Shown one piece after another: positions 1-28,102 of a DNA stretch of 64,000 nt. Below the pieces are notes generated by a model. It saw only the letters and a program-made list of their open reading frames with translations. It was not told where the DNA came from and did no database searches. Origin of the DNA: a virus. The DNA lies in the IMG/VR virus record IMGVR_UViG_3300020020_000025; one strand, written 5' to 3'. Every line of letters starts with the position of its first letter. Positions within the stretch are counted from its first letter, which is position 1. The translations under genes were made by a program, and so were the position numbers.

Positions 1-108
1 GGTAGAACTGATATAAACTGCTTGGAAATTAGTCCTCAAACTGGAGGAAATGTAAACTATCGAGGGCAGGAACAGCATATGATCCTCTCTACAAAATGGA
101 GAGGATAA
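1..108 (+). CDS. 3' end of tail fibre gene (complete copy at 45051-46502)
   Basis: Identical to 46395-46502; ends ...ILSTKWRG TAA immediately before the GTG at 109. Confidence 0.85.
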   Translation, partial: GRTDINCLEISPQTGGNVNYRGQEQHMILSTKWRG

Positions 109-1569: not shown

Positions 1570-1634
1570 GCCGGGGATGACATCGGCCGCCCGAGGGTGT
1601 ATGGTGGAATTGGGAAGCAGAAGGAGAGAAGGAA

Positions 1635-2570: not shown

Positions 2571-2953
2571 GTGTAGGATATAAGATCGCCAGGAATCCTG
2601 GGGACTATAGTCGGGCTCATGCCTTGATGCGTTCGGAAGGCTTCGCCAAGCAGAGGCTTAGCTTTCCGACCCTATTAGCATTGGATGAGGGGGTTGTTGG
2701 AGTTATTGGGACGAATATTACTAATAATATGATCTTAGCTGGTCCGCTCGTGATTAAGTCGGACCGCCGACGTATCGTGACCGCCATTCGGATGGTAGAA
2801 ATGTACGAAGTGGCGATGAAAGGTCTAGGCATCAAGACCTTTATCTTCGGGGTCGATCAAGGTAGCTTCTTGGAGAAGCTGATCGAGCGGTACGGATATC
2901 TGCCTCCATATGCGGAGGAAGAGGGCAAGAAGTTCTATATTAGGAGACTATGA
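2567..2953 (+). CDS. GNAT-fold acetyltransferase-like virion-module protein
   Basis: alpha/beta pattern ending LEKLIERYGY; position just before ejection genes as in many podoviruses. Confidence 0.45.
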   Translation: MSVGYKIARNPGDYSRAHALMRSEGFAKQRLSFPTLLALDEGVVGVIGTNITNNMILAGPLVIKSDRRRIVTAIRMVEMYEVAMKGLGIKTFIFGVDQGSFLEKLIERYGYLPPYAEEEGKKFYIRRL

Positions 2954-8323: not shown

Positions 8324-10409
8324 AGGCGGTCTTGAGGAGAGTCAACATACCCTGACGGACGAGGAACGTCGCTCTCTTGAAGCCCTCGTTAAGCAGTTAG
8401 AGACTGATCCTAGCGTGGCAGGTTCTGTTCCCGGAGCCCCTGGCCCAAGTGCAGGACAGGTACCTCTCCAGGCCGGCCGCGAGATGCAACCAGCTACTTC
8501 CTCTGAGCCGCTTGATCCCCTAGGTATTCGAGGGGCAGCTGGCAACATGCCAGTTGAGAACATGAGCCCTGGCCGTGCTGCGCTGGCGCGCGCAGTGCAA
8601 GGATGGGGAGAGAGTGGCTCCGCCACCATTGGAGCGGCTCAGCAAGTAGGCAAGGAGTTCGTAGAGGATTTCCCCAAGACCTGGCAAGAGTTTGTCGAGA
8701 AGACACAGAAACCTGAGAACGTCCGTGCAATCCTCAAAGGCAGCATGGGAGCTGCCGGAGGAATGACTATGACCAGCCTAGGTCCTGGCGGCATCATGCT
8801 AGGAACCTATGCAGGGGCCACAGTCGGAGGATATCTAGCCAACGCTTACGAGGACATCATAGGTCATACACGGACTACAGGCGGAGATGCTAACACTGTC
8901 CAACGCCTTATCCAACCTACACTCGATGCCCAGTGGGATGCTGCTGTATCAGGATCAGTGTCGGCCCTACCCTACGCTACACCCGTTATGAAGGGATGGC
9001 TAGCTAGGATGCTCAGTCTGCCTCCCAACTCTCGGCAATTGGTCGAAGAGGCATCATCTCTAGGAGTAAATATTGGCGTAGCTAATGTCGCTAATGGAGG
9101 CGTTGGCAAGGGTGCAGTCAATGTCTTCGGCAGGATGCCCCTAATCGGTACATCAGCCCGCAAGGCCTCTGAGCGCCAGGGTAAGGCTATTGTTGAGGCC
9201 TACAATGATATGTTTGGCCAGCTCTCGAACCCAAACGCTACTACTGAGGTTGCAGAAACAGCCCTACTAGCTGCCAGGAATCGATTTGGTGAGTGGTCTA
9301 CTAAGGCCATGGGACGCTATAATCACGCCTTAAAAGTTGGGGAAGAGCAAGGAGCAGTGCTCTCGACGGACAAGGTGTTGAAGGCCACTGGTCAGGCGCT
9401 GCATGAGATGAGCACCAAGACTGGAAAGCTGTTAGGCGTTCCTCCTGCAGATATGAAAGTGTTTCTAAATGGAGTTGTTAAGAACCTAGATGACAAGATG
9501 TCCACCATGGACGCTAATAATATATTGATAGATTTGGAACGCCTTATGAGAAAGGCCGACAAATCGCACGGTGTTCATTATAGCAAGCTGGAGCAAGTTC
9601 AGAAGGCCCTTGAAGAAACTCTCAAGGGCTCGGACAATGTAGCAGCCAAGTTGCTAGTGAAAGCCCGATCAAACTTCCAGGAAGGCATTAAAGAGTTTGA
9701 GACTAGTATCTTCAAGAAGATGGTTGGGCAGGTTGATCGGAATATCTACGCCATCGGCAAGATCAAAAGCGGAACTATAACTGCCGATGATCTAATGGAA
9801 ACTGCTGCAAAAACCCACTCCGCTAGCGCTGTCAGGGAGTTACGGAATGCAGCAGGGGACGACGTCGTTAGAAACGTCGCCAGGGCCCGCTTGGATGATG
9901 CCTGGGTCAAAGCTACGGGGATTGAGCCAGGCACTCTTTTTGTTGGCCAGAAACTGTCCTTTGATGCCAAGCGCTTCACCGAAGCTCTAGGCCTCAACAA
10001 TCCTAATTCTCAGAAATACTTCACTATGAAGGAGATGCTTCGGGGCAGTGGTGTTGATATTGGAGATATTGAAAAGCTGGCGCGAGTAGGACAGGCCGTG
10101 ACTGCCGCGCCTATAGCCGACGCTTCGACATTCATGGCCCGCGCTGCCGTGCTGCGGGGGGCAGGCGGCGTTGCGGAGGCTGTACGAGGGGCGTTAACAA
10201 TGGGAGCAGGTGGTAGGACTGCCCAGAACATTGGCATGGTGCCCGCTATTGCAGGCCTCGTGATGATGCGCTGGGGCATCGGTGCCATGATGAAGCCCGG
10301 TCTCGTCAAGTTGGCGACCACGGCTATGGATGAGGCTATAGAACCAGCTGCCAGGGCAGCCGCACTAACGCAGATGACACTCCTACATCCTAGCCTATTC
10401 AACGAGTAA
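8262..10409 (+). CDS. Large internal virion/ejection protein
   Basis: A/G-rich helical protein; GAGG RBS before ATG 8262 (track start 8211 also possible). Confidence 0.6.
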   Translation: MGGIPIDETLISQPQPQEVLEGGLEESQHTLTDEERRSLEALVKQLETDPSVAGSVPGAPGPSAGQVPLQAGREMQPATSSEPLDPLGIRGAAGNMPVENMSPGRAALARAVQGWGESGSATIGAAQQVGKEFVEDFPKTWQEFVEKTQKPENVRAILKGSMGAAGGMTMTSLGPGGIMLGTYAGATVGGYLANAYEDIIGHTRTTGGDANTVQRLIQPTLDAQWDAAVSGSVSALPYATPVMKGWLARMLSLPPNSRQLVEEASSLGVNIGVANVANGGVGKGAVNVFGRMPLIGTSARKASERQGKAIVEAYNDMFGQLSNPNATTEVAETALLAARNRFGEWSTKAMGRYNHALKVGEEQGAVLSTDKVLKATGQALHEMSTKTGKLLGVPPADMKVFLNGVVKNLDDKMSTMDANNILIDLERLMRKADKSHGVHYSKLEQVQKALEETLKGSDNVAAKLLVKARSNFQEGIKEFETSIFKKMVGQVDRNIYAIGKIKSGTITADDLMETAAKTHSASAVRELRNAAGDDVVRNVARARLDDAWVKATGIEPGTLFVGQKLSFDAKRFTEALGLNNPNSQKYFTMKEMLRGSGVDIGDIEKLARVGQAVTAAPIADASTFMARAAVLRGAGGVAEAVRGALTMGAGGRTAQNIGMVPAIAGLVMMRWGIGAMMKPGLVKLATTAMDEAIEPAARAAALTQMTLLHPSLFNE

Positions 10410-10413
10410 TCCA

Positions 10414-11607
10414 ATGGTAATGCGTCGAGTTCAAGCTGGCACTATTCAACAGCGCAAACGAGAGGCGCTGCAGGAGTTCTATAAAAAGCAGGCCGATGAT
10501 ATAGAGGCATATAAGAAAAGTAGGGATTCCAGCACTCAGGCCGAGATATACAGGGAGCACGGTGATCCTGATTTCCGAGTTGGTAAGTGGAGCCAGCCGC
10601 GTCTAAAAGATGTGCTGCCCCAGCGGGAAGAAAAGGAAAACGTAGACAGGTATCCTCGATATGAAGGAGGTGTCCAAGGTATATCTTCCCGCTCCGATGA
10701 TCTTCCTGACTTTAAGGGACCTCGTCCCGAGGGTTACTGGGGCAAAGATAAGTCATGGAGCCAACTAAGCGATCACCAGAAGGCCGCTGCAATGGCCTTG
10801 CTGGAGGCCGGTCTTGACAAGAATGGGAGACCCGATATCGTAGCTGCCAAGAACGCCCTGGGCGCTATGATTAACCGTGCAGACAAAGAGGGCCAGGAGC
10901 TAGGACGCCATGTCAGCGGTAAGATATATCAGCCTACTATTGAGCCTGATCAGTATGCCCGGTTGCAGCATCTTACAAGACTGCCCGCCTTTCGAGACCT
11001 CACCGACATCGCGGAGCAGCGTGCGACCGGCCAAGTAGAGGACTGGGTAGGCGGGGCTACCCATTTTCTAGCTCATCCAAAGGAGATGCTTGCCCTTGAG
11101 GCCAAGGATCCAGCGAAGTATAAGAACTGGGGGCCTCGAGGCAAGAACTGGACGGGCTATGATGAGGCTACAGGGAGATACAAGAATGAGGTCCTGTCGG
11201 ACAGCAGCCACGTCTTCCTGGCTCCTGAGGGTAAGCATAGTGCTTTTGCTGGGCAGCCTTCTGCTTTTGACTATGGTACAACCGCCGAGCTATCCCAGCC
11301 AGATCGCCTCCAGGTTCCATTTCCTGAAGAGCAGCCCTCACCTGCTCCTGCGCCTCAAGTTCCCGAGCTGCCCAAGCTGTCCGAGTTTCTGGCTCAACAA
11401 CAGAGACAAATGCCCCAAGCCCAGCCCAACGATCTGATGGACATTCAATCTAAACCTATCAGTCTGCCAGGGCTTGGAGATGAGCTTCCTGGTCAGGATG
11501 ATAGAGCGTTTGCCATTCTGCCTTCTCAGCAGCGTCGGAGGCCAGGCGGGGGCGCTCCGACGCTACCAGTGCCGCGTAGACCTCCGGGATTTCTTCCGGA
11601 GTTTTAA
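10414..11607 (+). CDS. Virion-associated cell-wall hydrolase (SleB/Hydrolase_2-like)
   Basis: ALLEAG...ALGAMINR...YQP...DWVGGATHF...HVF motif order; last gene of late operon. Confidence 0.55.
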   Translation: MVMRRVQAGTIQQRKREALQEFYKKQADDIEAYKKSRDSSTQAEIYREHGDPDFRVGKWSQPRLKDVLPQREEKENVDRYPRYEGGVQGISSRSDDLPDFKGPRPEGYWGKDKSWSQLSDHQKAAAMALLEAGLDKNGRPDIVAAKNALGAMINRADKEGQELGRHVSGKIYQPTIEPDQYARLQHLTRLPAFRDLTDIAEQRATGQVEDWVGGATHFLAHPKEMLALEAKDPAKYKNWGPRGKNWTGYDEATGRYKNEVLSDSSHVFLAPEGKHSAFAGQPSAFDYGTTAELSQPDRLQVPFPEEQPSPAPAPQVPELPKLSEFLAQQQRQMPQAQPNDLMDIQSKPISLPGLGDELPGQDDRAFAILPSQQRRRPGGGAPTLPVPRRPPGFLPEF

Positions 11608-12427
11608 CGGAGTGCATGTCACCCCATGAGATGCCAACCTTGATATCCACGTTTAGGCGAAAGGTATGTCCACCGTAGTTAAGTTCGGGCCTCATATATT
11701 CTACCATTTGGTGGCAGAAGTGAGTGAGGTCCCCCCAATTGTCAGTGGGATAGAGGGCCATAAGCGAGTCATGGACTTGCGCCCCAAGGTTCATTCGCTG
11801 GAAGGGCTCGGAGGTGTCCTCAAAAGCGGCACACATGGCCTCCAGAACTATGTCCACCACGGTAGATTGCGGTACGAAGGAGTAGGCCTTGTCGAACAAG
11901 TCCGAGCCCCATTCCCCAAGGAGTCTAACCTTGCGGCCGAAGCAGTTGGTAAGCGTGCGGTCGTTTTCCTTCATCGTTTGTCGAGTGGCTTCCCACCACT
12001 TTGGGATGCCAGGATAGGCAACTTCAGTGTAAGCCGCTACAATAGGGGCCGCCTCACTCTCCATGATTTCCCACTCAAGAGCAGCTCGCCTATATTTCAT
12101 GCCATAGTTGAGCCCGTGGTTAGACTTCTTGCCCGACTGACGAATGGACATCGATCGAGGAAGGAAGATTGCATCTTTCTCATGCAATTCAATCAGCTCG
12201 GGCAACTTTTCCCTTCGCAGTTGAGCGATCAGGCCGGGGTCGGTGGCGTTTCCGAGTAGCTTGTGATCGGCTATTACTAGAGGCTCGGGAACGTCTGTGA
12301 TGAGGGCCCCCGTCACTATGTGCGGACTCTTCCCGCTTTCCACCACTTCTATCATGTTCGGGTCGTTCGCTAGATAAGCTACCACTACCCACTCTGCCCC
12401 GGCCAGATCGAACTCTACCAGTATCAT
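11459..12427 (-). CDS. polA: DNA polymerase family A, C-terminal catalytic half (motifs A, B, C)
   Basis: Motif A EFDLAGAEW at the N-terminus; motif B KKSNHGLNYG; motif C QVHDSL; AAGGGG RBS. Confidence 0.9.
   Translation of the reverse strand: MILVEFDLAGAEWVVVAYLANDPNMIEVVESGKSPHIVTGALITDVPEPLVIADHKLLGNATDPGLIAQLRREKLPELIELHEKDAIFLPRSMSIRQSGKKSNHGLNYGMKYRRAALEWEIMESEAAPIVAAYTEVAYPGIPKWWEATRQTMKENDRTLTNCFGRKVRLLGEWGSDLFDKAYSFVPQSTVVDIVLEAMCAAFEDTSEPFQRMNLGAQVHDSLMALYPTDNWGDLTHFCHQMVEYMRPELNYGGHTFRLNVDIKVGISWGDMHSVKTPEEIPEVYAALVASERPRLASDAAEKAEWQTLYHPDQEAHLQALAD
11582..11605 (+). terminator. Intrinsic terminator at end of late operon
   Basis: CTCCGGGA-TTTC-TTCCGGAG then TTTT, overlapping the last codons of 10414-11607. 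Confidence 0.6.
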
Positions 12428-12686
12428 TACAGCCCCTTAGTCTATTGGCCACCAGTTTGGCATATCCCGCTATATCATCCCAGTTGTCAACGTGATCCTG
12501 ACTGCCCGTGGTGATGCGAGATATCTTACTAGCTACCTGGTCCAGGCCCTCCTTCATGTCCTCCGACAGACAATGATATCCGGGAGTACTCCGAATGAGG
12601 AACTTGAGGCCCTGAGCTACAGTGGCATTATCGATAAAGGGGCCGTAGACTTGGCCCCTTTGCTCCAGCAGCTTATCGGTTTCCAT
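12189..12686 (-). CDS. DUF6378-like phage protein with out-of-frame tail overlapping the Pol C-half
   Basis: EQRGQVYG...KISRI...HVDNWDDIAGYA; conserved part ends near 12430. Confidence 0.6.
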   Translation of the reverse strand: METDKLLEQRGQVYGPFIDNATVAQGLKFLIRSTPGYHCLSEDMKEGLDQVASKISRITTGSQDHVDNWDDIAGYAKLVANRLRGCNDTGRVRSGRGRVGSGSLSSERPEHDRSGGKREESAHSDGGPHHRRSRASSNSRSQATRKRHRPRPDRSTAKGKVARAD

Positions 12687-13587
12687 TGGCGTTCTCCACG
12701 TCCAACAGCATTTTTTCTACTGTCTCAGCGTCGAAGGTTCCCGAGGGCTCACCGATGGCTACCCGTTGATAAATCTCAAGAGCTACCAAAGTCTTAGGTC
12801 CAAGGTGACCGTCAACTACCAGGCCAGGCCGATGTCCCAGTAGATTAAGAGTAGCCTGGCCCCAGCGAACCCACTCGTAAGTCCCTGGCTTGACTGCTCC
12901 AATTAGCCCACCTACCCACTGATCTGCCAGTTCCTCATAGGTGCCTCTAAAGGAGTTGACATCGAGATTACTGTCATCCACTCCCTTAATTTTTGGGGCA
13001 TCAGGTCCATGCTGGCCATCAGTGAACTGCCACAGCCAGTAACTGTCCCAGCTAGCCTGAGTATGAGGCTGAGGTCCGTACTGAGCGTGCCACAATCTGC
13101 ATGTGCCAAGATACTGGTCAACTTGGTTGCCCAACTGATCCTTGATAAGATGGCCCGAGTATAGCACGGGCAGCCTACCAGTTTTGGCCTCGAGCAGCTT
13201 AATGAATTGGATAGCATCAGCTGCACTGCATCGCTCGTCCTCATGATCGAGAGCCAGCAATGTACCAGGCTCAGGATCAGCATGTCTCAGGAAATGCTCG
13301 ACTTGGGCCGTAATATCCCCTGGCCTGAAGAAATGATAGGCGCCCCACAACAGGCCTACACTCTTTGCTAGGCTTCGGCGGGATGCATACGTAGGATCGA
13401 CGTAGCTAGAACCTTCAGTGGCCTTGTGGATAATGCCTCTAATACCGCTATAATATATGTCCTGAAAGGACGTTACTGTATTATGGTGGCTCAGATCGAG
13501 CACCATCGGGTTAAGCTTCTCGCCCTTAGGCTGAGCAGGTTCTTTGGTCTTAGATTTGGTCGTGGGCATGTCTACTTTTCCTCTCAT
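12673..13587 (-). CDS. Endolysin: GH25 muramidase plus C-terminal peptidoglycan-binding domain
   Basis: VLDLSHHN, HKATEG, GAYHFF, LDHE (DxE), WQFTD; C-terminal VDGHLGPKT PG-binding motif. Confidence 0.88.
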   Translation of the reverse strand: MRGKVDMPTTKSKTKEPAQPKGEKLNPMVLDLSHHNTVTSFQDIYYSGIRGIIHKATEGSSYVDPTYASRRSLAKSVGLLWGAYHFFRPGDITAQVEHFLRHADPEPGTLLALDHEDERCSAADAIQFIKLLEAKTGRLPVLYSGHLIKDQLGNQVDQYLGTCRLWHAQYGPQPHTQASWDSYWLWQFTDGQHGPDAPKIKGVDDSNLDVNSFRGTYEELADQWVGGLIGAVKPGTYEWVRWGQATLNLLGHRPGLVVDGHLGPKTLVALEIYQRVAIGEPSGTFDAETVEKMLLDVENANGNR

Positions 13588-13717
13588 CCCGTAGATAAGT
13601 CATCAGTTTCCGTCTCTGTCTGTACGTCTTCTCGTAGTTCTTCTCCTGGTTCTTGTACTTTGGCCTCCTTAACTTCGCCAGTAGGCGATCTCGCTCCGTT
13701 CGTATGCGCTTGGGCAT
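13550..13717 (-). CDS. Possible 55-aa basic protein overlapping the acidic tail of the Pol N-half
   Basis: AGAAGGA RBS then ATG CCC AAG; K/R-rich. Confidence 0.35.
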   Translation of the reverse strand: MPKRIRTERDRLLAKLRRPKYKNQEKNYEKTYRQRRKLMTYLRDERKSRHAHDQI

Positions 13718-15362
13718 CTTTCCTTCTCGCCACAATAAAGCCTTTGAACTGAGGATGAAGGTTCTGCAGGTTCATTCCCTTATTGAAGATCGTCTGTGAC
13801 GATGACAGTCGTCCTGTCCATGTTCCTCGAGGATTCCAGCTACATCGAAGCATCATGTCGGGATCAAGCTCGACCTCGAGATATGTCCCTTTGAGCTTTC
13901 GGAGAGATCGAACTTCCTGTGTTAGCTTGGCCTCCTTGGCCCCAGGCCCGCCCTTGCGGACGATCCGAGACATGGCTTTGTCATCAGTGGTGATACCGCC
14001 TCTTGCCTTAGTGTAGGCCTTAAGGCCCAGTGTCTCATAGAAGTACTTGGCGCACTGGGCAGGCGACGAGACGTTGAAATCCCATTCAGCGGCTTCCCGG
14101 AGTTCAGCCTCCTTAGCAGCCAATTCCTGTTCGATTTGGGCCTTCGTAGCCCCGAGGCCTTCCAGATCCACTTCTAGACCACGAGCCGACATATACGTAA
14201 GCGGGCCGGCCAATCTGACGGTTCTGTTGTAAGTGGGCCAATAGCCTCCAGCTGTCATTTCCTCCGATAATACGTCCCACGCTTCTAGCGCTACACATGC
14301 GTCTCGGCCACAGTATCGCTGAAACTGCTCCCACTCGATGTTGGGGTTCTTCCATATCTTGCCATCATCCTTCCAGTAAGGCTCCCGTGTATGCACGCTC
14401 GCGATAAAGTCCAGACCTTTCCTAAAATCAGGATACAGGACGTGCTGGGCAATCATAGGATCGCCAAGTTTGCCCTTCGTGTGGATATGATTCTTGTTAA
14501 ACAGGTATGGTGCATCAAAGCCCACCAGGTTCTGGTTGATCTTCTCGATCTCAGGATCACTCATCAAGGCCGCATAGTTCTGCCATACCCTAATCTCATC
14601 ATCTTCTTCCCAATAGGGCACCGTGCCTGGCCACTGCATATCCCCCACGAGGGGAACAGTCATGGCCTCTTCTTTGTCGCACGAGAGACTAAAGCAGCTA
14701 ATCTGCTCATTAACGACTTCAAGATCAGTCGCTACGCGACCGACCTCTCGGCACTTATGGATATACTGGTAGAAATCGTAGTATGTTGGCCTGACATGCA
14801 GAGTCCGCTTTGGCAACAGCAGTTCGGGACTATCCAGTTCGCCCTGGATCTTCTTCATGTCCCCTATTATCATGTAGCGCCACAAATAGACGCCGTGGAT
14901 TGTTGCTGCTGGATGGATAGTCGGAATGTACTTTTTCTTGACTCGATCGCTCCATAAGGGGCTGCCTCGCCACTTCATGATGGGCTTCTTGTGATCGTCC
15001 ATCAGCAGTTCCATAGCCTGAGTCCCCATGCTCAAGATGGCATTGCACTTCGAGGCCATGATCCGACGTAATGTAGGAACAGCGGCATCCAGGCCATATG
15101 CAGTAAAACCCTTGCTCACTGTCCATACCTGTTCTCCGTCCATAGAGAAATTTCCGGCCTTGTCCTTATCTATGGGCTTAGGCCAGATGTTGAGAATATA
15201 GCAATTGCGCCGTATAAGGCCAGCAGCGTGGAGACAGTCCATAAAAACGTCCCCACTAGGACCAACCAGCGGCCTACCAAGCCGCATCTCGACTCTTGCG
15301 GGAGCCTCCGCCAGGACCAAAAGGGGCGCATTGGGATCGCCTTCTTCAGAAGGAGTTGCCAT
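13584..15362 (-). CDS. polA: DNA polymerase family A, N-terminal half: UDG family 4-like domain, 3'-5' exonuclease, thumb and TGRLSS motif
   Basis: AEAP...GRPLVGPSG...HPAA; ExoI TDLEV, ExoII NLVGFD, ExoIII YCGRDA; TGRLSSS...NLQNL...FIVA. Confidence 0.9.
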   Translation of the reverse strand: MATPSEEGDPNAPLLVLAEAPARVEMRLGRPLVGPSGDVFMDCLHAAGLIRRNCYILNIWPKPIDKDKAGNFSMDGEQVWTVSKGFTAYGLDAAVPTLRRIMASKCNAILSMGTQAMELLMDDHKKPIMKWRGSPLWSDRVKKKYIPTIHPAATIHGVYLWRYMIIGDMKKIQGELDSPELLLPKRTLHVRPTYYDFYQYIHKCREVGRVATDLEVVNEQISCFSLSCDKEEAMTVPLVGDMQWPGTVPYWEEDDEIRVWQNYAALMSDPEIEKINQNLVGFDAPYLFNKNHIHTKGKLGDPMIAQHVLYPDFRKGLDFIASVHTREPYWKDDGKIWKNPNIEWEQFQRYCGRDACVALEAWDVLSEEMTAGGYWPTYNRTVRLAGPLTYMSARGLEVDLEGLGATKAQIEQELAAKEAELREAAEWDFNVSSPAQCAKYFYETLGLKAYTKARGGITTDDKAMSRIVRKGGPGAKEAKLTQEVRSLRKLKGTYLEVELDPDMMLRCSWNPRGTWTGRLSSSQTIFNKGMNLQNLHPQFKGFIVARRKDAQAHTNGARSPTGEVKEAKVQEPGEELREDVQTETETDDLSTG

Positions 15363-15882
15363 CTTCGATTTCCTTTAGAAGGATAGCTATATCTCCAGCT
15401 CCCAACTTGTCCAGAGGAGAGTTAGGTTTTAATATATACTTACCTCGCGAAGATAATGGAATACCATTCGATTGATCTTCTCTAACTTCTTCCATCGATT
15501 CCTCTACAATATTAGCTTTTCCATCATCCCTAAAACCTCGGCTTATCTCGGCTAGATAATATTCATACAAGGGCAAGGTGCCTCGAACGTTGCCATATCT
15601 GTCAGCTAATACTACCATAAAACTATAACCAAAGTCAAGCTCGTCAAGGCGGACATGCAAATTCATATATGCCTCTAATTTCTCGACGCTAAGAGGACTA
15701 GTATCCTCTATCTCAAACACTAGAATATTACCATGCTCATGATCTACATAGTATCCATCTGGAAGATAAGATCCAAACAGATGCTCCATTAAAAGATTTC
15801 CTAGAGTTTTGCGAAAGTTCTTTCTTTCAAGTTTTGGAAACTTGATTTTTAGAGCTTCAAAAGCTCTGGCTTCTAACCTCAC
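15346..15882 (-). CDS. PD-(D/E)XK-like nuclease, AT-rich insertion
   Basis: LPDGYYVD...LVFEIED; four 60-nt lines hand-counted at 32-38% GC versus 62% in an adjacent line. Confidence 0.5.
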   Translation of the reverse strand: MRLEARAFEALKIKFPKLERKNFRKTLGNLLMEHLFGSYLPDGYYVDHEHGNILVFEIEDTSPLSVEKLEAYMNLHVRLDELDFGYSFMVVLADRYGNVRGTLPLYEYYLAEISRGFRDDGKANIVEESMEEVREDQSNGIPLSSRGKYILKPNSPLDKLGAGDIAILLKEIEDGNSF

Positions 15883-16079
15883 TTCTTTTGTCCTCCTTGT
15901 CTGATGCAGCGGATGAGCTCTATGGAGAGCTCGTTTGGAACTTTCTTGGCCATATCCTTCAGCTGGAGCGAAGTCTCCTGACAGGTCCGCATGTCCCTAA
16001 AGTGAATGAGTATGGTCTTCTGCCATATCATCACTGGGACGCCGAACTTCACGACGATATATAGAGTCACAAAGTCCAT
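15879..16079 (-). CDS. Hypothetical protein
   Basis: Start reassigned to ATG 16079 (TAATG overlap); coupled to downstream gene. Confidence 0.55.
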   Translation of the reverse strand: MDFVTLYIVVKFGVPVMIWQKTILIHFRDMRTCQETSLQLKDMAKKVPNELSIELIRCIRQGGQKK

Positions 16080-16342
16080 TACTCTGCGGTCCTTAAGGTG
16101 TGCGACATAGCGCCCATCTTGCATCGGGTGCAGAAGCGCTCGCCGCCGTTCTCTATCTCCCGCCAGCCCTCCCAATTGTGTTCGCAGGGACCCTCTGGAC
16201 AGGCGCAGTAACAGGCATTCCAATCGAAGTTGTGATGGAGAACGCCCTTGATGTTCATTTTCTTGGCAACCTCTTCCAGTTCTTCACGAACCTTGATGTT
16301 GCGTTCCTTGCGAAGGGCTTCAAAGTCAGGTTTTCCGGCCAT
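16079..16342 (-). CDS. Small Cys-rich (Zn-binding) protein
   Basis: CYCAC..GPCEH and CTRC; AAGGAG RBS. Confidence 0.65.
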   Translation of the reverse strand: MAGKPDFEALRKERNIKVREELEEVAKKMNIKGVLHHNFDWNACYCACPEGPCEHNWEGWREIENGGERFCTRCKMGAMSHTLRTAE

Positions 16343-17627
16343 ACTCTTTCTCCTTGTCTTCCGTTATGCGCTTGAGGAAACTCTCCTTATGATCGTCCGA
16401 GAGGTCCCAGCCTATACCTGTGTGTTGGAGGCGATAGGCTGCCCGCAATGTCACCCCTGAGCCCAAGAAGGGGATTAGGATATGACTGCCGGGATCGAGG
16501 CACAGATTGAGTATCTCCTCCATAAGGACCAAGGGCTTCTCAGTGGGATGATCCTTCTTGGCCAGTGCTGGATAGTTGAAGACGTTGCCTCGTCCCTGTC
16601 GAGGTAGTTTGGGCTGGCCCTTGCGGGCCAAGAAGAATGGTTCATAAGCTGAGCCCAAGGTCGTCTCAGGAGCCGCTGTCTGACCTCCCATTTCGCCCTT
16701 GACCCAGACAGCCGGTATATCAGGCACGCCGAAGCCTACGTCACGCAAGGTTGTAAGAACCATGTGGTGCCAAGACATGCCGTACCAGAACACCGCAAAG
16801 GCGTTAGGTCGAAGACGATCGTAGACAAGAGTGCATAACTGCCTAAAAGCGACTGGGAAACCCTTGTTATCCCACTCGAAATACTGGTCCATTGGACTTC
16901 CATCGGTGTTCCTCGATTTGCGCTTATCTAGATCAACGCCATAAGGAGGATCAACCTCAGCGAAGTGAAAGAGATCACCTTTCATCTGGGTCATCTCTTG
17001 CATGGCATCACCTATTAGATAATGATCGCTGGCATAGTCGACAGCCCGCTTGATATGGTCAGGCACTAGATCTCGTGCCCGCTTTAGAGCAACCTTTTCC
17101 TCCAGCTTCTTTACGTCCTTCCATGCAGCATCTTCCGTTTCCATTTCCTCAAGGGCAAGTTCAGGAGCCTCCTCCATTGTCTTAGCAATTTCAAGGGCCC
17201 TATGAGTATTGCTCTTATCTCTCCCTACAAGAAGAGCATGTTTCTCCTTTGTCCATCCCTTGGGATTGGTCGTAGGTTCCCATTCCCCATATTGAGCTAT
17301 CTTCAGGTTCCATATCTTCAATTCTAGTTTAGCTCTTTCGTGCCATTCAAGATCTTTCCGAGCTACATTTTCAATCAACTCAATTTCAAGGCTATTCGCT
17401 TCGCCATTTATTGGACGTACTATAGCCTTAATAGTGTCTAGCCCAAGCAGTCGATGAGCGAGATACCGACGTTCACCGGCCACCAACTTAAGATCAGTAT
17501 CTAGCGTAATAGGTTGAATAAGGCCATGCTGCTTGATGGCTATTGCTAGACCTTCGATATCTCCCTTATCCTCGCGTGCTCGGTCTTTGACCTTTATTTG
17601 GTCAAGCCTGATCTCCTGTACCTGCAT
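16326..17627 (-). CDS. ParB-N domain / DNA methyltransferase (N6-A or N4-C, beta class) fusion
   Basis: GLIQPI...LVAGERR, ENVARKDL; DPPY motif IV; HPTEKP; PFLGSG motif I. Confidence 0.85.
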   Translation of the reverse strand: MQVQEIRLDQIKVKDRAREDKGDIEGLAIAIKQHGLIQPITLDTDLKLVAGERRYLAHRLLGLDTIKAIVRPINGEANSLEIELIENVARKDLEWHERAKLELKIWNLKIAQYGEWEPTTNPKGWTKEKHALLVGRDKSNTHRALEIAKTMEEAPELALEEMETEDAAWKDVKKLEEKVALKRARDLVPDHIKRAVDYASDHYLIGDAMQEMTQMKGDLFHFAEVDPPYGVDLDKRKSRNTDGSPMDQYFEWDNKGFPVAFRQLCTLVYDRLRPNAFAVFWYGMSWHHMVLTTLRDVGFGVPDIPAVWVKGEMGGQTAAPETTLGSAYEPFFLARKGQPKLPRQGRGNVFNYPALAKKDHPTEKPLVLMEEILNLCLDPGSHILIPFLGSGVTLRAAYRLQHTGIGWDLSDDHKESFLKRITEDKEKEYGRKT

Positions 17628-21727: not shown

Positions 21728-21829
21728 CAGCGCCTTCTCCTTGTTATTGTATTGTAGAGGGAGACCAACCAAGAGAGCTGATCTGATCGGTCCCCCCTAA
21801 CCTGCAGGGGTGCGGGGGCGTCCCGCAGG

Positions 21830-22171
21830 CTAGTTGGCGCGTTCCCTGATCTCCTTGGCCAGCGCCTTGCGGTCAGCTGGAGACATTCGCGAGATTTCAT
21901 CGCGCGCACGCTCCAGTGGAGTCTTGCCTACCTTGCGGAGGCCCGGCTTCCACTCATTAACCGCAGTCTGAATTTCCTCCTGCGACTTACCATCATCGAG
22001 CATTCCTCGGATGTAGGACTGCAGGGCGATGATAATAGACCGACGGGCATGACTATAGACAATCTCAGACCCGTAGGTTTCAACCAGGCCATTAACGTCG
22101 TCGGGAGTATTCCAAGTGACTGATCCTGAGGGACCATTCACCCGTTCTGCTTTCACCTGCAACTCAGCCAT
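21830..22171 (-). CDS. Hypothetical helical protein
   Basis: GGAAGGAAG RBS before ATG 22171. Confidence 0.65.
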   Translation of the reverse strand: MAELQVKAERVNGPSGSVTWNTPDDVNGLVETYGSEIVYSHARRSIIIALQSYIRGMLDDGKSQEEIQTAVNEWKPGLRKVGKTPLERARDEISRMSPADRKALAKEIRERAN

Positions 22172-22252
22172 TTTCGTACTTCCTTCCTTTTCTGCAAGGC
22201 GTGCCCGCATGGCACAACCGCGCGGGCATATTGGACACATCAAGCGCCGTTG

Positions 22253-22558
22253 TCAACCAGAATTTTTCCTACCCATTATTAGATGGGGGTGACTTTCGTC
22301 ACCATTCAGGGTCTCAAGACGGAGCATGATGTTAGGGATAGACTCCTCTACTATTATTGCATAGTCGGGGATGTTCATCCTCAGTTCGGTAGCCCTAACC
22401 TCAATGCCTTCCATATCCTGGAATTGGTAGGGACGCATCTCCTGGACCCTAGTCATGTTGATGGCAACCTTCTCTCGGTCGTATCTCTTACGACCAAGAT
22501 AGGTAGTAGAAGTAAACGTGATGCTGTACTCAGTTAGTTCGAGGAACACTCGCTTCAT
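22253..22558 (-). CDS. Hypothetical beta-rich protein
   Basis: AAGGAG RBS before ATG 22558. Confidence 0.55.
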   Translation of the reverse strand: MKRVFLELTEYSITFTSTTYLGRKRYDREKVAINMTRVQEMRPYQFQDMEGIEVRATELRMNIPDYAIIVEESIPNIMLRLETLNGDESHPHLIMGRKNSG

Positions 22559-22778
22559 TGTTAGTCTCCTTGTAAGGCTTGTGAGGTGGAGGATTGAGAA
22601 GGGCCACACAGAGCGTACAGTATAGAAGCGAGGCCCAGAACACTCCTATATATAGACCTAATCCTAAGTCCATACCCATATTAGGTTTATCATTAGACCA
22701 GCCACCGCTACGACTGCTGGATCGACCTCCTTTATATGTAGAAAGGCCAACGCGACTAGCGCGATAGTTACGAGCCAT
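22530..22778 (-). CDS. Small membrane protein
   Basis: GGAGG RBS; one hydrophobic helix. Confidence 0.55.
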   Translation of the reverse strand: MARNYRASRVGLSTYKGGRSSSRSGGWSNDKPNMGMDLGLGLYIGVFWASLLYCTLCVALLNPPPHKPYKETNNEASVPRTN

Positions 22779-22794
22779 TGGAACCTCCTATGCA

Positions 22795-23028
22795 TCATTC
22801 ACCTTCTCCTGCCAGAGCTGCTACGATGATTACAACTGCAAGGAGGAAAGCCGAGGCTACGTAGAGCTCCTTGAAGCCTATCACAATGGCTGAGAAGTAT
22901 AGAAAGTGTAGCCATGCTCCTGCTCGAGTAATTGGCCGAACTAACCGAGGATGGTGATCTAGCCAATTACGGAACAGCTCTAATTCATAGCCAATCCACC
23001 TTGCCAATCTGCACACAGGACATGTCAT
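22795..23028 (-). CDS. Small two-TM membrane protein
   Basis: Two hydrophobic C-terminal segments; in series with neighbours. Confidence 0.5.
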   Translation of the reverse strand: MTCPVCRLARWIGYELELFRNWLDHHPRLVRPITRAGAWLHFLYFSAIVIGFKELYVASAFLLAVVIIVAALAGEGE

Positions 23029-23287
23029 CTTTGTTTCCTTGTTTTGGCTTAGATTCTAGATCCTTGAGTTTCATGTACTCCTGCTCATAGTAAACTATGA
23101 GGGCCATTGTGTCGGTCTCTTGGTTGATCTTGCTCTCGAAGGACCGTCTACTATCATTGATCTTTGCCAGTCCTGAGTCCTCGAAGTTCTTCACCCCTAC
23201 AACGCGAAGGACCTCCTCTAGCATGGCCTTGTAATGTTTGGAGACTATGGCTCTCAGATTAGCGTACTCGACTTGTTTCATTGTCAT
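22985..23287 (-). CDS. Hypothetical protein
   Basis: AAGGGAG RBS; ATGA-coupled to upstream gene. Confidence 0.6.
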   Translation of the reverse strand: MTMKQVEYANLRAIVSKHYKAMLEEVLRVVGVKNFEDSGLAKINDSRRSFESKINQETDTMALIVYYEQEYMKLKDLESKPKQGNKDDMSCVQIGKVDWL

Positions 23288-23487
23288 TCTCCCTTGGATC
23301 GAGCCCAGTCAGTTTTCTGGGCAGGCTGCTTACCGCTAGGTCTTATAGCTCGAACGACTTTGACCCATCTCACCAGGTCAAAGTCAACGCGATTGGACTT
23401 CTGTTTGAAGTTGTATGCCGAATAGGCCTTGAAAGCCTGGCCTATCTCGAGGTCTGTAGGAGGATCATTGTCTTTTGCCATGGTCAT
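23284..23487 (-). CDS. Hypothetical protein
   Basis: Start reassigned to 23487, downstream of the structured spacer. Confidence 0.5.
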   Translation of the reverse strand: MTMAKDNDPPTDLEIGQAFKAYSAYNFKQKSNRVDFDLVRWVKVVRAIRPSGKQPAQKTDWARSKGE

Positions 23488-23514
23488 TGTTCCGTTGTCG
23501 GAGGATCGATTACA

Positions 23515-23586
23515 GGGCCGTGGGATCGCACGGGGCGACTGCCGATGGGTGGGCAACGCGGCCCCATTAGCCGCGCCCCACGGCCC
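23515..23586 (-). ncRNA. Candidate structured RNA: four-way junction with complementary loops
   Basis: P1 GGGCCGUGGG/CCCACGGCCC, P2 GCGGC/GCCGC loop UAAUGGG, P3 UGCC/GGCA loop CACCCAUC, P4 UCGC/GCGA; intergenic. Confidence 0.5.
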
Positions 23587-23597
23587 ATTCCAGGGCG

Positions 23598-23837
23598 CTA
23601 CGGTGAGGGTGGCGGGGACGATCCCCCGCCCTCCGTTCCGTTGTTCGTGACAGCCTCAATTAGGGCATCCTTGTTGGTATTAAGAGCGCCAATGGTCTCA
23701 TCTACAGCGCCAAAGAGTGGGTTATCCTCTTGATCTTCTCCTTCCATCTCGTCATAGATTTCCTGCAGCTCACTAGCCAGTGTGCTCATAGATTCAGCGA
23801 TACGCTTGATCTGAGTAGTACGCGCTTCAGTAGCCAT
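23598..23837 (-). CDS. Small acidic protein
   Basis: AGGAG RBS before ATG 23837. Confidence 0.6.
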   Translation of the reverse strand: MATEARTTQIKRIAESMSTLASELQEIYDEMEGEDQEDNPLFGAVDETIGALNTNKDALIEAVTNNGTEGGGSSPPPSP

Positions 23838-23978
23838 TCCCGTTCTCCTATGATTTGAAAGTGACCGGGGTTCCACCGGCCTCAAGGTGTGGCTACCTCT
23901 TTGTGCCATCTTGGAATGGAGACACCAGCATCCCGATCACGTCAGTAGAACCCACAGACCGGCTCGGGGTCTCGATGG

Positions 23979-24224
23979 TTAGGCGCTAATGGCCTTAACC
24001 ATATCCTCGGCCTGCGTCTCGGCGGTGTCCTCGAGGTACTCAGGGACGTACCCCTCCTCGACGGCCCACCTAGTGACAATGGTGCAGGCCTCATGCACAT
24101 CCTTGGCCAGTCCCGCGCGCCGCAGAGACTCAACGGAGTCCACAACGGCAGGGAACGAACCCTCCTCGTCCATCTCGAGGAGGAACTTGGCGCGGATGTC
24201 AAGCAGCTTGTTTTGGTTAGACAT
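23979..24224 (-). CDS. Hypothetical early protein downstream of the hammerhead
   Basis: AAGGAG RBS. Confidence 0.65.
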   Translation of the reverse strand: MSNQNKLLDIRAKFLLEMDEEGSFPAVVDSVESLRRAGLAKDVHEACTIVTRWAVEEGYVPEYLEDTAETQAEDMVKAISA

Positions 24225-24252
24225 TGTTAGTCTCCTTGTATAGATAGCTACT

Positions 24253-24305
24253 GGCCATCGTCAGTCACCGCATGACGGTGAGAGCCCCTAGCGGGGCTTT
24301 CGGCC
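24253..24305 (-). ncRNA. Hammerhead ribozyme, type II permutation
   Basis: GGCC-GAAA-GCCCC(GCUA)GGGGC-UC^UCACCG(UCAUG)CGGUGA-CUGACGA-U-GGCC; complete core, stems I/II/III of 6/4/6 bp. Confidence 0.8.
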
Positions 24306-24652
24306 TACCCTCGTAATGCCACAGCTCGGTCTACCCTCGTTACTTCAAGCGACCCATCAGGCTGCACGACAGCCAAGATCGCACGCTCGTAGAACAGAAG
24401 CTTCTCATCCCTCAGTTCCGCCTTAGCCAACGGAAACAAGGGAAAATCGCCAGGATATAGCAATACATCATCCCTTATCGTGAAGTTGCGCATGGGGAAG
24501 GATCCCCTACGATGATTATAGTTATCGTTCAGTTGCTCCTTCAGTTGCTCCTTTGCGGGACGAGGATCATCCAGATGGAAGAACCCAGGCAACAAGCCTA
24601 GATGTTCCATAGTCATACCGGGATGCAGCAGTTTCCATTGAGGGCTCATCAT
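24305..24652 (-). CDS. Conserved phage hypothetical protein
   Basis: AAGGGAG RBS before ATG 24652; WKLLHP...DDPRPAKEQ...YPGD...LRDE...QPDGS pattern familiar from alphaproteobacterial phages. Confidence 0.65.
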   Translation of the reverse strand: MMSPQWKLLHPGMTMEHLGLLPGFFHLDDPRPAKEQLKEQLNDNYNHRRGSFPMRNFTIRDDVLLYPGDFPLFPLAKAELRDEKLLFYERAILAVVQPDGSLEVTRVDRAVALRG

Positions 24653-24678
24653 TATCTCCCTTGTTTCCAAACGCAGAA

Positions 24679-24702
24679 TGGGACCGCCCGAAGACGATCC
24701 CA
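24679..24702 (-). other. 10-bp hairpin with C(UUCG)G tetraloop in intergenic spacer
   Basis: TGGGATCGTC-TTCG-GGCGGTCCCA (with G-U pairs). Confidence 0.55.
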
Positions 24703-24707
24703 CCCTG

Positions 24708-24974
24708 CTATTGCAGTCGAGCCTTCTGTGACAGACGGTAACGCTTGGATGCCGCAGCTCGACATTGACGGCACTCCAGACGCCCGTTACTGCGCCGATA
24801 GGCATTGACGCCCTCAACCCTGTGTCCACGGTGACACAGGCGGCCCCGGCGTAGAGATGCCCCGGAGCTGGCTACGAACTCCATGTCCTCCTTGGAGGCC
24901 CCGACATGGAACTCGGGATGGGGTGATGGCTCTGGGGATGGAGAGAACCATGATGTCAGTAGCATGTTAAGCAT
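24708..24974 (-). CDS. Small Zn-finger protein
   Basis: CHRGH...ECRQC; AAGGAGG RBS. Confidence 0.6.
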   Translation of the reverse strand: MLNMLLTSWFSPSPEPSPHPEFHVGASKEDMEFVASSGASLRRGRLCHRGHRVEGVNAYRRSNGRLECRQCRAAASKRYRLSQKARLQ

Positions 24975-25179
24975 GTTCGCCGCCCTCCTTTATGCGGCCT
25001 TCCGAAGGCATCAAAGAGGGCCAACAAGTCGCTGCAAACTTCATGAACTCAGTAAGCACCTTGGGCTCCAGACCAACCCAGTGGTCGCCTTCCATTCGTG
25101 GAGCTCTAAGCCTAATCATATAGCCATCGAAGCTGGCATATAGGCCATCGCCTAGATATGTCTCGTCTGTTCTCATCAT
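24967..25179 (-). CDS. Conserved small phage protein
   Basis: TYLGDGLYASFDG...LRAPR...DHWV.LEP pattern; GGAG RBS. Confidence 0.65.
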   Translation of the reverse strand: MMRTDETYLGDGLYASFDGYMIRLRAPRMEGDHWVGLEPKVLTEFMKFAATCWPSLMPSEGRIKEGGEHA

Positions 25180-25181
25180 TC

Positions 25182-25415
25182 CTACTCCGTCAGAGGTGGG
25201 CTATGATAGAAACCCCCTCGTTCGAGCATCAACTGAAAGGATACTCGCTCTTCCCGTCTCACAACGAGGTCTCCACACTTAGCACCGTTGAACCAGACGC
25301 CATAAGTCACGTGACCAGGCGTCGCATGTAAGATGCGAAATGAGGCAGTACGAACATCGATCTGCTTTTCCATAGCGTCCTCCAACATGTGATAGTGGCC
25401 CCTGAGGCGCCTCAA
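25182..25415 (-). CDS. Hypothetical early protein
   Basis: In series with neighbours; alternative start 25373 with GGAGG RBS. Confidence 0.55.
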   Translation of the reverse strand: MRRLRGHYHMLEDAMEKQIDVRTASFRILHATPGHVTYGVWFNGAKCGDLVVRREERVSFQLMLERGGFYHSPPLTE

Positions 25416-25657
25416 TCGACACTACGAAGCCGAGGCGGCATCGCCATGAGCGCCTTGGTCAGCAACGCATGTGTCTCTCGGCTGGCGTCGCGATGCACGG
25501 CTTGGATGACCATCACAAGGTCGGCGTGGAACTCCGCCGCCTCCCGCTTGTCAACTGGCGCGTAGCGTTTGAAGAACCACTCCATGCGCCGATGGAGAGC
25601 GCGCTCATCCATATCGCGCTCGCGTTCCTTGGATGCCTCTGTGGCGGTCATGCTCAT
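25412..25657 (-). CDS. Hypothetical early protein
   Basis: GGAG RBS before ATG 25657. Confidence 0.55.
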   Translation of the reverse strand: MSMTATEASKERERDMDERALHRRMEWFFKRYAPVDKREAAEFHADLVMVIQAVHRDASRETHALLTKALMAMPPRLRSVD

Positions 25658-25716
25658 ATCCGCTCCATTGTTAGTGGCCCCTGGCTCTCTGGGGGAGTGA
25701 AGCCAGGGGCCGGCCA

Positions 25717-25968
25717 CTAATCCGTCGAGGGAAGAGACGGATCAGCAGCCTTGACCTCCTCAGCAACAAGGGGAGCGGGAGGCCATTCCTTAAGCAACTT
25801 GACGATCGCTGCTAGTTTCTGATGGGCGATCTCATCGTGGTCAGACGGGACATACAAGCAGATATCCACAGTGGTCTCCATATGTATGGATATCTCTGCA
25901 AAACTCGCATGTCCTATTCCAGCGGCTGCCTTCACAGATAAGTCTCTGATGTTGTGAAACGAGATCAT
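25717..25968 (-). CDS. Hypothetical early protein
   Basis: ATGA-coupled to 25965-26159. Confidence 0.55.
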   Translation of the reverse strand: MISFHNIRDLSVKAAAGIGHASFAEISIHMETTVDICLYVPSDHDEIAHQKLAAIVKLLKEWPPAPLVAEEVKAADPSLPSTD

Positions 25969-26159
25969 GACTTGTTGCTCCTTATGATCCTGAAGGTTGT
26001 TTCAGCAGGGAAGTATCCCGAGTTTATCCAGTGATCTCTCTGCTGCAACAGTTCAGCCCTTGCTACAATCTCGCTTAGTTCACCGAGTGCGAGTTGGTCC
26101 TTTGATCCGACAGTGTTCCAGGCGTCATACCGATCTTTAACCTGAAGGAGAAGTTTCAT
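25965..26159 (-). CDS. First gene of the early operon, hypothetical
   Basis: AAGGGA RBS downstream of a consensus promoter. Confidence 0.6.
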   Translation of the reverse strand: MKLLLQVKDRYDAWNTVGSKDQLALGELSEIVARAELLQQRDHWINSGYFPAETTFRIIRSNKS

Positions 26160-26185
26160 GTCCCTTGTTTCCCCTTGTTAGAGCT

Positions 26186-26219
26186 CCATTTCAGTGGACG
26201 ATCTCATCCCCTGAAATGG
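26186..26219 (-). other. 5'-terminal hairpin of the early transcript
   Basis: CCATTTCAG-G-GGAT-GAGATC-GTCC-A-CTGAAATGG beginning about 6 nt after the -10. Confidence 0.5.
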
Positions 26220-26224
26220 TCCCC

Positions 26225-26253
26225 ATTATAACACGGGGTGATGGTAGATACAA
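26225..26253 (-). promoter_or_regulatory. Strong sigma70-type early promoter
   Basis: TTGTAT-17-TATAAT with extended TGn. Confidence 0.8.
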
Positions 26254-27998: not shown

Positions 27999-28063
27999 AA
28001 AGGCCATTCTGCAACACCCCATGTAGCCCAAAGGCTACACATATAGAGGATCTTATTGGAGCT

Positions 28064-28102
28064 ATTAAGATGTTGCGTGTAAATTACACGCAATATCTTG
28101 TT
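28064..28102. promoter_or_regulatory. Second copy of the palindromic element
   Basis: ATTAAGATGTTGCGTGTAAATTACACG matches the reverse complement of 17890-17916 at 25/27. Confidence 0.6.

What the first reader, a model, noticed from the sequence alone, without database searches (positions are those of the whole stretch)
21759..26253. Early transcript divided by RNA structures: a possible self-processing mRNA system
Seen: from the consensus promoter at 26253-26225, most larger spacers hold a strong structure: 5' hairpin (26219-26186), UUCG hairpin (24702-24679), hammerhead (24305-24253), anti-RBS leader (23978-23835), four-way junction (23586-23515) and double helix (21829-21759). None has a classic U-tract. 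Established: T7 early mRNA is cut by host RNase III. Inference: this phage segments and stabilises its early message partly with its own catalytic and structured RNAs, tuning small host-takeover genes.
Basis: inference. Interest (0 to 1): 0.65.

Follow-up and report, generated by a model that had tools for sequence, protein, structure and literature searches.

The report
Phage hammerhead among ordinary mRNA hairpins
The small early genes of an uncultured phage are separated by one genuine self-cutting RNA (a type II hammerhead ribozyme), a T7-like terminator and paired hairpins with C-rich loops; this kind of message punctuation is known, but in related phages the ribozyme and the paired hairpins swap places in front of the same gene.

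Summary
Partly confirmed. The window is a 46.4-kb phage without its own RNA polymerase. The structures do not form one self-processing system; only one is catalytic.

The type II hammerhead (24305-24253, cut after 24282) is real: intact core, 0/1000 shuffles, and an independent hammerhead with different stems sits before the same gene in a relative. The UUCG hairpin is a T7-TE-like terminator (tail 10/11 identical), and a second conserved promoter lies at 22256, so there is no single uninterrupted transcript. The 'anti-RBS leader' is unsupported (z about 0). The four-way junction and the 5' hairpin fold but are not conserved.

The best-conserved element is a tandem double hairpin with C-rich loops (21831-21759, and 25750-25676, which was missed): 20 hits in 210 kb of relatives, none in 629 kb of shuffles. 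It resembles 6C/cuckoo RNAs but scores below Rfam thresholds. In six relatives such a double hairpin, with a pseudoknot, occupies the hammerhead's spacer.

Ribozyme segmentation of phage transcripts was proposed in 2011 (PMC3088659), and this scan has noted phage hammerheads in dozens of other genomes. No RNA data were obtained, and 'host takeover' is untested.

The parts
26225..26253 (-). P1, host sigma-70-type promoter with perfect extended -10 and weak -35; probable start near 26219-26217
   Evidence: Top site in the genome for a matrix trained on relatives; conserved position in 6 relatives. Activity and timing not tested.
26186..26219 (-). 14-bp hairpin at the predicted 5' end; lineage-specific
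   Evidence: z -4.6; absent in 5 relatives
25676..25750 (-).
   Evidence: conserved after the same gene in 6 relatives; Rfam 6C 29.6 bits versus cut-off 47, ar14 20.2 versus 58.8
24708..24974 (-). 88-aa ORF with a short match to HNH-endonuclease PHROG families; the terminator follows this gene even where it has moved
24667..24708 (-). UUCG hairpin plus interrupted U-tail: intrinsic terminator of the T7 TE type, probably leaky
   Evidence: z -7.1; T7 TE comparison; tetraloop-type hairpin plus U-rich tail in 7 or more relatives
24305..24649 (-). 114-aa ORF of unknown function; its stop codon overlaps the first base of hammerhead stem II; homologues elsewhere are not followed by a hammerhead
24253..24305 (-). 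Type II hammerhead ribozyme: stem II 4 bp, stem III 6 bp, CUC triplet (cut between 24282 and 24281), stem I 6 bp with a 5-nt loop starting with U, intact core plus one extra U after A9; 28 nt before the next start codon
   Evidence: Rfam RF02276 23.2 bits, cut-off 37, E 0.005; 64 bits
23979..24224 (-). 81-aa acidic ORF of unknown function; its upstream spacer holds a hammerhead in 2 phages and a double hairpin in 7
23835..23978 (-). 144-nt spacer called 'anti-RBS leader'; no support for a defined structure
   Evidence: z -0.13; terminator-like hairpin in relatives; no homologue
23515..23586 (-). Predicted four-way junction with a possible 5-bp loop-loop contact; seen only in this phage
   Evidence: no homologue
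22228..22256 (-). P2, internal promoter candidate (perfect -35, weak -10 with upstream TG) before the 113-aa gene
   Evidence: TTG-type -35 and TG at matching spacing in 11 relatives; score 10.7 is second in the region but within the shuffle range on its own
22198..22219 (-). Small conserved hairpin in the P2 leader
   Evidence: 8 phages, 2 pairs changed on both sides
21830..22171 (-). Conserved 113-aa ORF of unknown function, first gene behind P2
21759..21831 (-). Double hairpin 2: two abutting helices with C-rich loops, 0-3 nt linker (5 nt in one relative; often UA), no U-tract
   Evidence: Conserved shape with free stem sequence in 14 relatives; no Rfam family

Best explanation
This is the small-gene early region of a short-tailed phage transcribed by host RNA polymerase. 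Its message is shaped by a mixed set of known devices, not by one self-processing system. (1, shown by conservation) P1 starts the unit and P2 restarts it before the 113-aa gene. (2, shown by likeness to T7 TE; efficiency inferred) A leaky intrinsic terminator at 24708-24667 steps expression down. (3, structure shown; cutting inferred from an intact core) In read-through RNA the hammerhead cuts after 24282. The upstream piece ends in the stem III hairpin with a cyclic phosphate. The downstream piece begins with a 5'-OH and the stem I hairpin, 57 nt before the start of the 81-aa gene. Both ends should resist host exonucleases and 5'-monophosphate-dependent RNase E (established knowledge). (4, conservation shown; role inferred) The C-loop double hairpins act as passive boundaries: the first helix blocks 3'-to-5' decay of the upstream gene and the second caps the downstream gene after a host nuclease cut. 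This gives the same two end structures that a type II hammerhead makes by itself, which would explain why the two devices replace each other in front of the 81-aa gene. The 5' hairpin and four-way junction are lineage-specific stabilisers at most, and the 'anti-RBS leader' has no demonstrated role.
For: No large ORF matched an RNA polymerase. Promoters. Terminator. Hammerhead: the only descriptor hit of its strength in the genome and 0/1000 shuffles; 64 bits with a model built without the window; 9 of 14 pairs change on both sides in 20 sequences; a second hammerhead with wholly different stems I and III starts on the upstream stop codon before the same gene in phage G004, behind an unrelated upstream gene. 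Swap: double hairpin with loop-to-tail pseudoknot in L003, L006, L007, L290, L291, L294. Double hairpins: 20 hits in 210 kb of sense strand, all with C>G loops, versus 0 in 629 kb shuffled; 54 of 56 hairpins have C>G unpaired bases, about 10 unpaired nt versus 5 in terminators. Precedent: PMC3088659; protective 3' and 5' structures in operons, PMC5927463, PMC4423207; a U inserted after A9 raises cleavage 3-4-fold, PMC3705267.
Against: The hammerhead lacks the loop I/3'-tail pseudoknot usual in type II, and two competing hairpins beat the active fold by 4-5 kcal/mol once the 3' tail is made, so it may be slow or gated. It is absent from at least 9 relatives, so it is dispensable for the clade. 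Passive protection does not explain why the loops are long and always C-rich. The hammerhead set was gathered with a pattern taken from this sequence and filtered for stems, so its conservation and covariation figures are inflated. P2 alone does not exceed shuffles. The host is unknown.
Confidence: 0.62

Rival explanations
1. The C-loop double hairpins are released as small RNAs of the 6C/cuckoo type and pair through their loops with G-rich ribosome-binding sites of host or phage mRNAs. The region would then deliver regulatory RNAs as well as proteins.
For: Two abutting hairpins with free stems and C-rich loops is the 6C/cuckoo architecture (PMC4615179; PMC6486639). The best Rfam match of 25751-25672 is full-length 6C (29.6 bits, E 0.011), then ar14. 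Loop bias is strong and strand-specific. Double hairpin 2 follows the first gene of its own promoter, as the Rhodobacter cuckoo cluster follows a small gene.
Against: Scores are well below the cut-offs (47 and 58.8), and double hairpin 2 has no such match. No fixed loop motif. No terminator or promoter bounds them. C-rich loops could simply avoid RNase E sites and false ribosome-binding sites (inference).
Confidence: 0.15
2. The long helices are host RNase III sites, as in the T7 early region, and the hammerhead replaced one of them.
For: Helices are 11-16 bp, at or above the roughly 11-bp minimum (PMC3867540); intergenic position; abutting helices could stack.
Against: It does not explain the C-rich loops, the strict pairing of helices, or the pseudoknot.
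Confidence: 0.1
3. One reading: several spacers are self-cleaving. The four-way junction, the 144-nt spacer or the pseudoknotted double hairpin of relatives are ribozymes of undescribed classes.
For: New self-cleaving classes have been found beside hammerheads and small phage ORFs (PMC6155905). The relatives' element sits exactly where the hammerhead sits and has two compensatory pseudoknot pairs. The junction's loop match has about 1.6% chance.
Against: No conserved unpaired core that would suggest catalysis. The junction and 144-nt spacer have no homologue. No Rfam ribozyme match. The pseudoknot covariation rests on two sequence types only.
Confidence: 0.05
4. The double hairpins are U-less terminators or pause sites with C-rich Rho-loading loops. 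The region is stepped down only by termination and restarted by promoters, and the hammerhead is a nearly neutral passenger.
For: Classical terminators occur in neighbouring spacers of relatives. C-rich, G-poor RNA is what Rho loads on (established knowledge). The hammerhead is patchy.
Against: Terminator-type hairpins in the same phages look different: single helix, short loop, U-tail. The hammerhead's core and position are kept in two phages whose flanking protein is 31% identical.
Confidence: 0.08

Closest known systems
Type II hammerhead ribozymes of phages and prophages (Rfam RF02276; Perreault et al. 2011, PMC3088659)
   Same: Open stem II, full catalytic core, intergenic position among small non-conserved phage genes, short distance to the next start codon, and the same proposed role of cutting polycistronic RNA.
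   Different: Single copy rather than a cluster. No loop I/3'-tail pseudoknot; instead a 6-bp stem I with a U-first pentaloop and an invariant A before a 4-bp stem II, a pattern shared by about 20 other phage hammerheads found here. Extra U after A9; CUC triplet. Below the Rfam cut-off.
T7 early terminator TE (V01146 position 7588)
   Same: C-UUCG-G-capped GC-rich stem and a tail identical at 10 of 11 bases.
   Different: Lies inside the small-gene cluster rather than at its end; the tail can pair back to extend the stem to 16 bp.
T7 early mRNA processing by host RNase III
   Same: A host-polymerase transcript of small early genes with structured spacers.
   Different: No phage RNA polymerase found; helices are 16 bp or shorter; the one predicted cut is made by a ribozyme.
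6C RNA (RF01066) and cuckoo/ar14 RNAs (RF02344)
   Same: Two adjacent hairpins with variable stems and C-rich loops; 25751-25672 aligns over the full 6C model.
   Different: Below both cut-offs; no six-C run in both loops and no fixed cuckoo motif; embedded between phage genes, with no evidence of a separate transcript.
Protective intercistronic stem-loops (malEF type; selective RNA processing and stabilisation; PMC5927463, PMC4423207)
   Same: Strong U-less helices directly after a stop codon inside an operon, conserved in shape.
   Different: Always paired, with C-rich loops, and exchangeable with a ribozyme.

Membership tests
Hammerhead ribozyme, type II | Core CUGANGA, GAAA and NUH in type II order | tested here: met
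   one extra U after A9, a tolerated insertion
Hammerhead ribozyme, type II | Stems I and III closed by loops, stem II open, all paired | tested here: met
   6, 6 and 4 bp; 0/1000 shuffles; covariation in the subfamily and in G004
Hammerhead ribozyme, type II | Rfam RF02276 gathering score of 37 bits | tested here: not met
   23.2 bits, E 0.005 on a 111-nt stretch. The model expects a 2-bp stem II and no insertion; a custom model gives 64 bits
Hammerhead ribozyme, type II | Loop I/3'-tail pseudoknot (majority of type II, not obligatory) | tested here: not met
   No complementary tail; tails vary freely in the subfamily
Hammerhead ribozyme, type II | Alternative stem I-stem II tertiary contact (loop-I U with an A beside stem II) | tested here: inconclusive
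   U and A invariant in 20 of 20 sequences and present in G004; geometry recalls the reverse Hoogsteen pair of type I/III but the contact is not shown
Hammerhead ribozyme, type II | Self-cleavage | not testable with these tools
   Needs an in vitro assay; RNA runs not available
Intrinsic terminator, T7 TE type | GC-rich short-loop hairpin followed at once by a U-rich, interrupted tail | tested here: met
   (it fails the stricter 5-U-in-8 rule)
Intrinsic terminator, T7 TE type | RNA release at the tail | not testable with these tools
   No transcript data
6C RNA (RF01066) | Two adjacent stem-loops with C-rich loops | tested here: met
6C RNA (RF01066) | Six conserved C in the loops; gathering score of 47 bits | tested here: not met
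   29.6 bits; runs of 3 and 5 C in the window
Cuckoo/ar14 RNAs | The same 9-nt cuckoo motif in every loop | tested here: not met
   Loops are C-rich but variable; ar14 20.2 versus 58.8 bits
6C or cuckoo RNAs | Stable small transcript acting in trans | not testable with these tools
   No RNA data
RNase III site | Duplex of at least about 11 bp from the cut | tested here: inconclusive
   Helices of 11-16 bp; cleavage not testable
Other Rfam ribozymes or riboswitches (for 23978-23835 and 23586-23515) | Match to a family model | tested here: not met
   Best 21.8 versus 55 and 13.5 versus 60 bits, unrelated families

The most novel reading that the evidence does not exclude
The C-loop double hairpin is an undescribed phage RNA class that does the hammerhead's job in another way or more: either the pseudoknotted version in relatives is itself self-cleaving, or the hairpin pairs are cut out as phage-encoded anti-ribosome-binding-site small RNAs that silence host mRNAs.
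Probability: 0.15. Interest if true: 0.75.

Novelty: new variant of a known kind. Interest (0 to 1): 0.37.

Why it matters
Why bacteria and phages carry hammerheads is still open (PMC6155905). This clade offers a natural swap: the same gene is preceded by a hammerhead in two phages and by a non-catalytic double hairpin in seven. If both give the same protected RNA ends, the ribozyme's role is simply to make a stable 5'-OH, hairpin-capped message without host enzymes, and that can be tested with reporter fusions in a laboratory strain. The C-loop double hairpin is strongly conserved and is in no Rfam family at threshold. The broader claim, that phages cut early transcripts with hammerheads, is not new.

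Tried and rejected
Whole-window Rfam at gathering threshold: nothing; E-value mode on 6.5 kb also missed the hammerhead. No tRNA. No whole genome held. No cultured relative: best exonuclease hit 27%, no DNA match. Strain copies in 5 contigs are identical over the region and give no covariation. Linking the hammerhead to the upstream 114-aa gene: rejected, since four homologues lack it. More hammerheads in this phage: none by descriptor or model. Homologues of the junction and the 144-nt spacer: exact-pattern scans gave chance or coding hits; blastn and nhmmer on 2.5 Mb of loci gave none. HDV-like, pistol, twister, twister-sister, TPP, SAM and c-di-GMP readings of those two spacers were checked by eye against recalled consensus and by Rfam and dropped. 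G004's spacer shares only the first 9 bases with the 144-nt spacer. The relatives' version of the junction spacer has no covarying consensus. Host assignment through the outer-membrane protein failed. Function searches for the small proteins gave nothing. Two paper searches returned no result.
Full report
Setting. The window is one 46,394-bp phage genome repeated exactly (0 mismatches over the 17.6-kb overlap). It encodes a primase/helicase, family A polymerase, ribonucleotide reductase, Sak4, an exonuclease, a ParB-methyltransferase and a portal. No large ORF matched an RNA polymerase. No cultured relative exists in the phage collection. The same phage is on record in 12 contigs; the five examined are identical over this region. 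The finding covers about 15 small minus-strand ORFs between the primase and the recombination genes. I compared it spacer by spacer with about 20 uncultured relatives, whose 113-aa marker protein is 38-64% identical.

Transcription signals. P1 (26253-26225) has a weak -35 and a perfect extended -10. It is conserved in six relatives and is the best site in the genome for a matrix trained on relatives alone (19.7; best shuffle 15.1). A second promoter candidate, P2 (22256-22228), precedes the 113-aa gene. Its score (10.7) is within the shuffle range, but a TTG-type -35 and the TG motif recur at matching spacing in 11 relatives, and a small leader hairpin with two compensated pairs follows it. 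The UUCG hairpin (z -7.1) carries the same loop as the T7 TE terminator and a tail identical at 10 of 11 bases. A short-loop hairpin with a U-rich tail follows the homologous gene in at least seven relatives, including those where the gene has moved. So the region is not one uninterrupted message: it is stepped down once and probably restarted once.

Hammerhead. 24305-24253 has the full core in type II order, stems of 6, 4 and 6 bp, a CUC triplet and one extra U after A9. Rfam's type II model gives 23.2 bits (cut-off 37, E 0.005). A descriptor finds it once in the genome and never at this strength in 1000 shuffles (6/1000 at loose settings). Pattern scans of IMG/VR yielded about 20 phage hammerheads of the same build. 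In these, 98.9% of cells pair and 9 of 14 pairs change on both sides, and most lie 11-53 nt before a start codon, commonly 27-31 (28 here). Because the pattern came from this sequence and hits were filtered for stems, those figures are inflated; the A before stem II and the first U of loop I were not selected for and are invariant. A model built without the window scores it at 64 bits and finds no second copy. The same model found a hammerhead in relative G004. It starts on the upstream stop codon, precedes the homologue of the 81-aa gene (31% identity), has different stems I and III, a GUC triplet and no extra U, and follows an unrelated upstream gene. This is the best independent evidence of selection. 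A U at the insertion site speeds cleavage 3-4-fold in a viroid hammerhead (PMC3705267). Against fast constitutive cutting: there is no pseudoknot, and competing hairpins win by 4-5 kcal/mol once the tail is made, though the active fold ties or is within 1 kcal/mol at the moment stem II is completed.

Double hairpins. The element at 21831-21759 keeps its shape in 14 relatives while the stem sequence turns over almost completely. A strict tandem-helix descriptor gives 20 hits in 210 kb of relatives, all with more C than G in the loops, and none in 629 kb of shuffles. Over 56 hairpins, unpaired bases are about 50% C and 7% G and average 10 nt, whereas terminator hairpins of the same phages have about 5 unpaired nt and no such bias. 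Several of these phages are close kin, so the counts are not independent. The best Rfam match is the 6C RNA over its full length, below cut-off (29.6 versus 47 bits), then ar14; the second element matches nothing. Of 11 phages in which the spacer before the 81-aa gene could be read, two carry a hammerhead, six a double hairpin with a UA linker, one a looser double hairpin and two other hairpins. In those six, the second loop pairs with the 3' tail (6-7 bp, two compensated pairs between two sequence types). That is the outline of a pseudoknotted type II hammerhead without its catalytic core; Rfam has no family for it.

Elements that did not hold up. The 144-nt 'anti-RBS leader' folds no better than shuffles (z -0.13) and has no homologue. 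Nine relatives have a plain hairpin there, most with a U-rich tail. The four-way junction can be drawn (z -1.7 to -3.7 depending on the ends chosen) and its 5-bp loop match has about 1.6% chance, but it is confined to this phage. The 5' hairpin is strong and placed at the predicted start but absent from relatives. No small protein has a functional assignment.

Mechanism. Shown: the positions, folds and conservation above. Inferred: host polymerase starts at P1, part of the RNA stops at the TE-like terminator, and read-through RNA is cut by the hammerhead. That leaves a hairpin-ended upstream piece and a 5'-OH, hairpin-capped downstream piece that should resist host decay (established knowledge of RNase E and exonucleases). 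The double hairpins most likely give the same pair of protected ends after a host cut, as protective structures do in bacterial operons (PMC5927463; PMC4423207). That would explain the swap. It leaves the C-rich loops only partly explained, which keeps a 6C/cuckoo-like small-RNA role open (PMC6486639; PMC4615179).

Comparison and verdict. Perreault et al. 2011 described type II hammerheads flanking single genes in prophages, proposed that they cut long phage transcripts, showed cleavage of such clusters, and noted a halovirus hammerhead at the mapped 5' end of an early transcript (PMC3088659). This scan has noted intergenic phage hammerheads in at least 66 genomes (unchecked notes). What is added here is a pseudoknot-free type II subfamily that Rfam under-scores, a clade-wide C-loop double hairpin, and a natural exchange of the two before one gene. 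No RNA-level evidence was obtained. Novelty: new variant of a known kind; interest 0.37.

Noticed in passing
L003:4765-4860 +, L007:4767-4860 +, also L006, L290, L291, L294: Double hairpin whose second loop pairs with the 3' tail just before the ribosome-binding site (two compensated pairs); sits where the hammerhead sits; no Rfam family.
   Followed up: partly
window 22219-22198 -: Conserved small hairpin in the P2 leader, kept in 8 phages with covariation; could be an RNA operator or a DNA site.
   Followed up: partly
L072, L174, L177, L181, L183, L189, L192, L201, L219, L225, L229, L233, L235, L236, L248, L265, L266: Subfamily of phage type II hammerheads with an extra U after A9, a 6-bp stem I with a U-first pentaloop, an invariant A before a 4-bp stem II, and no pseudoknot.
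   Followed up: partly
L058 (7 copies), L025 (4), L093 (3): Clusters of pseudoknotted type II hammerheads a few hundred bases apart in unrelated viral contigs.
   Followed up: no
window 24345-24305 -: A 10-bp direct repeat ends at the hammerhead's start; the 114-aa ORF runs 7 codons past the point where homologues stop, suggesting a duplication when the ribozyme arrived.
   Followed up: partly
window 23508-23499 -: A 10-nt motif with an anti-Shine-Dalgarno-like core is invariant in this spacer in the window and 8 relatives although the rest of the spacer differs.
   Followed up: partly
window 26214-26210 -: A short TTCAG motif about 10 bases after the P1 -10 box is kept in most relatives even though the 5' hairpin is not.
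   Followed up: no
L162:7373-7590 +: Five hairpins in a row, most with C-rich loops, after the 113-aa gene homologue: an expanded form of the double hairpin.
   Followed up: no
window 4424-4493 +: A tandem helix with C-rich loops in the late region, inside a proline/glycine-rich reading frame; probably a by-product of coding composition.
   Followed up: partly
window 17930-17871 -: Strongest hairpin of the leftward arm in the sliding scan (z -8.6), with a related palindrome at 28046-28099.
   Followed up: no
window 46395-64000: Exact repeat of 1-17606: the contig is a concatemer of a 46,394-bp circularly assembled genome.
   Followed up: yes
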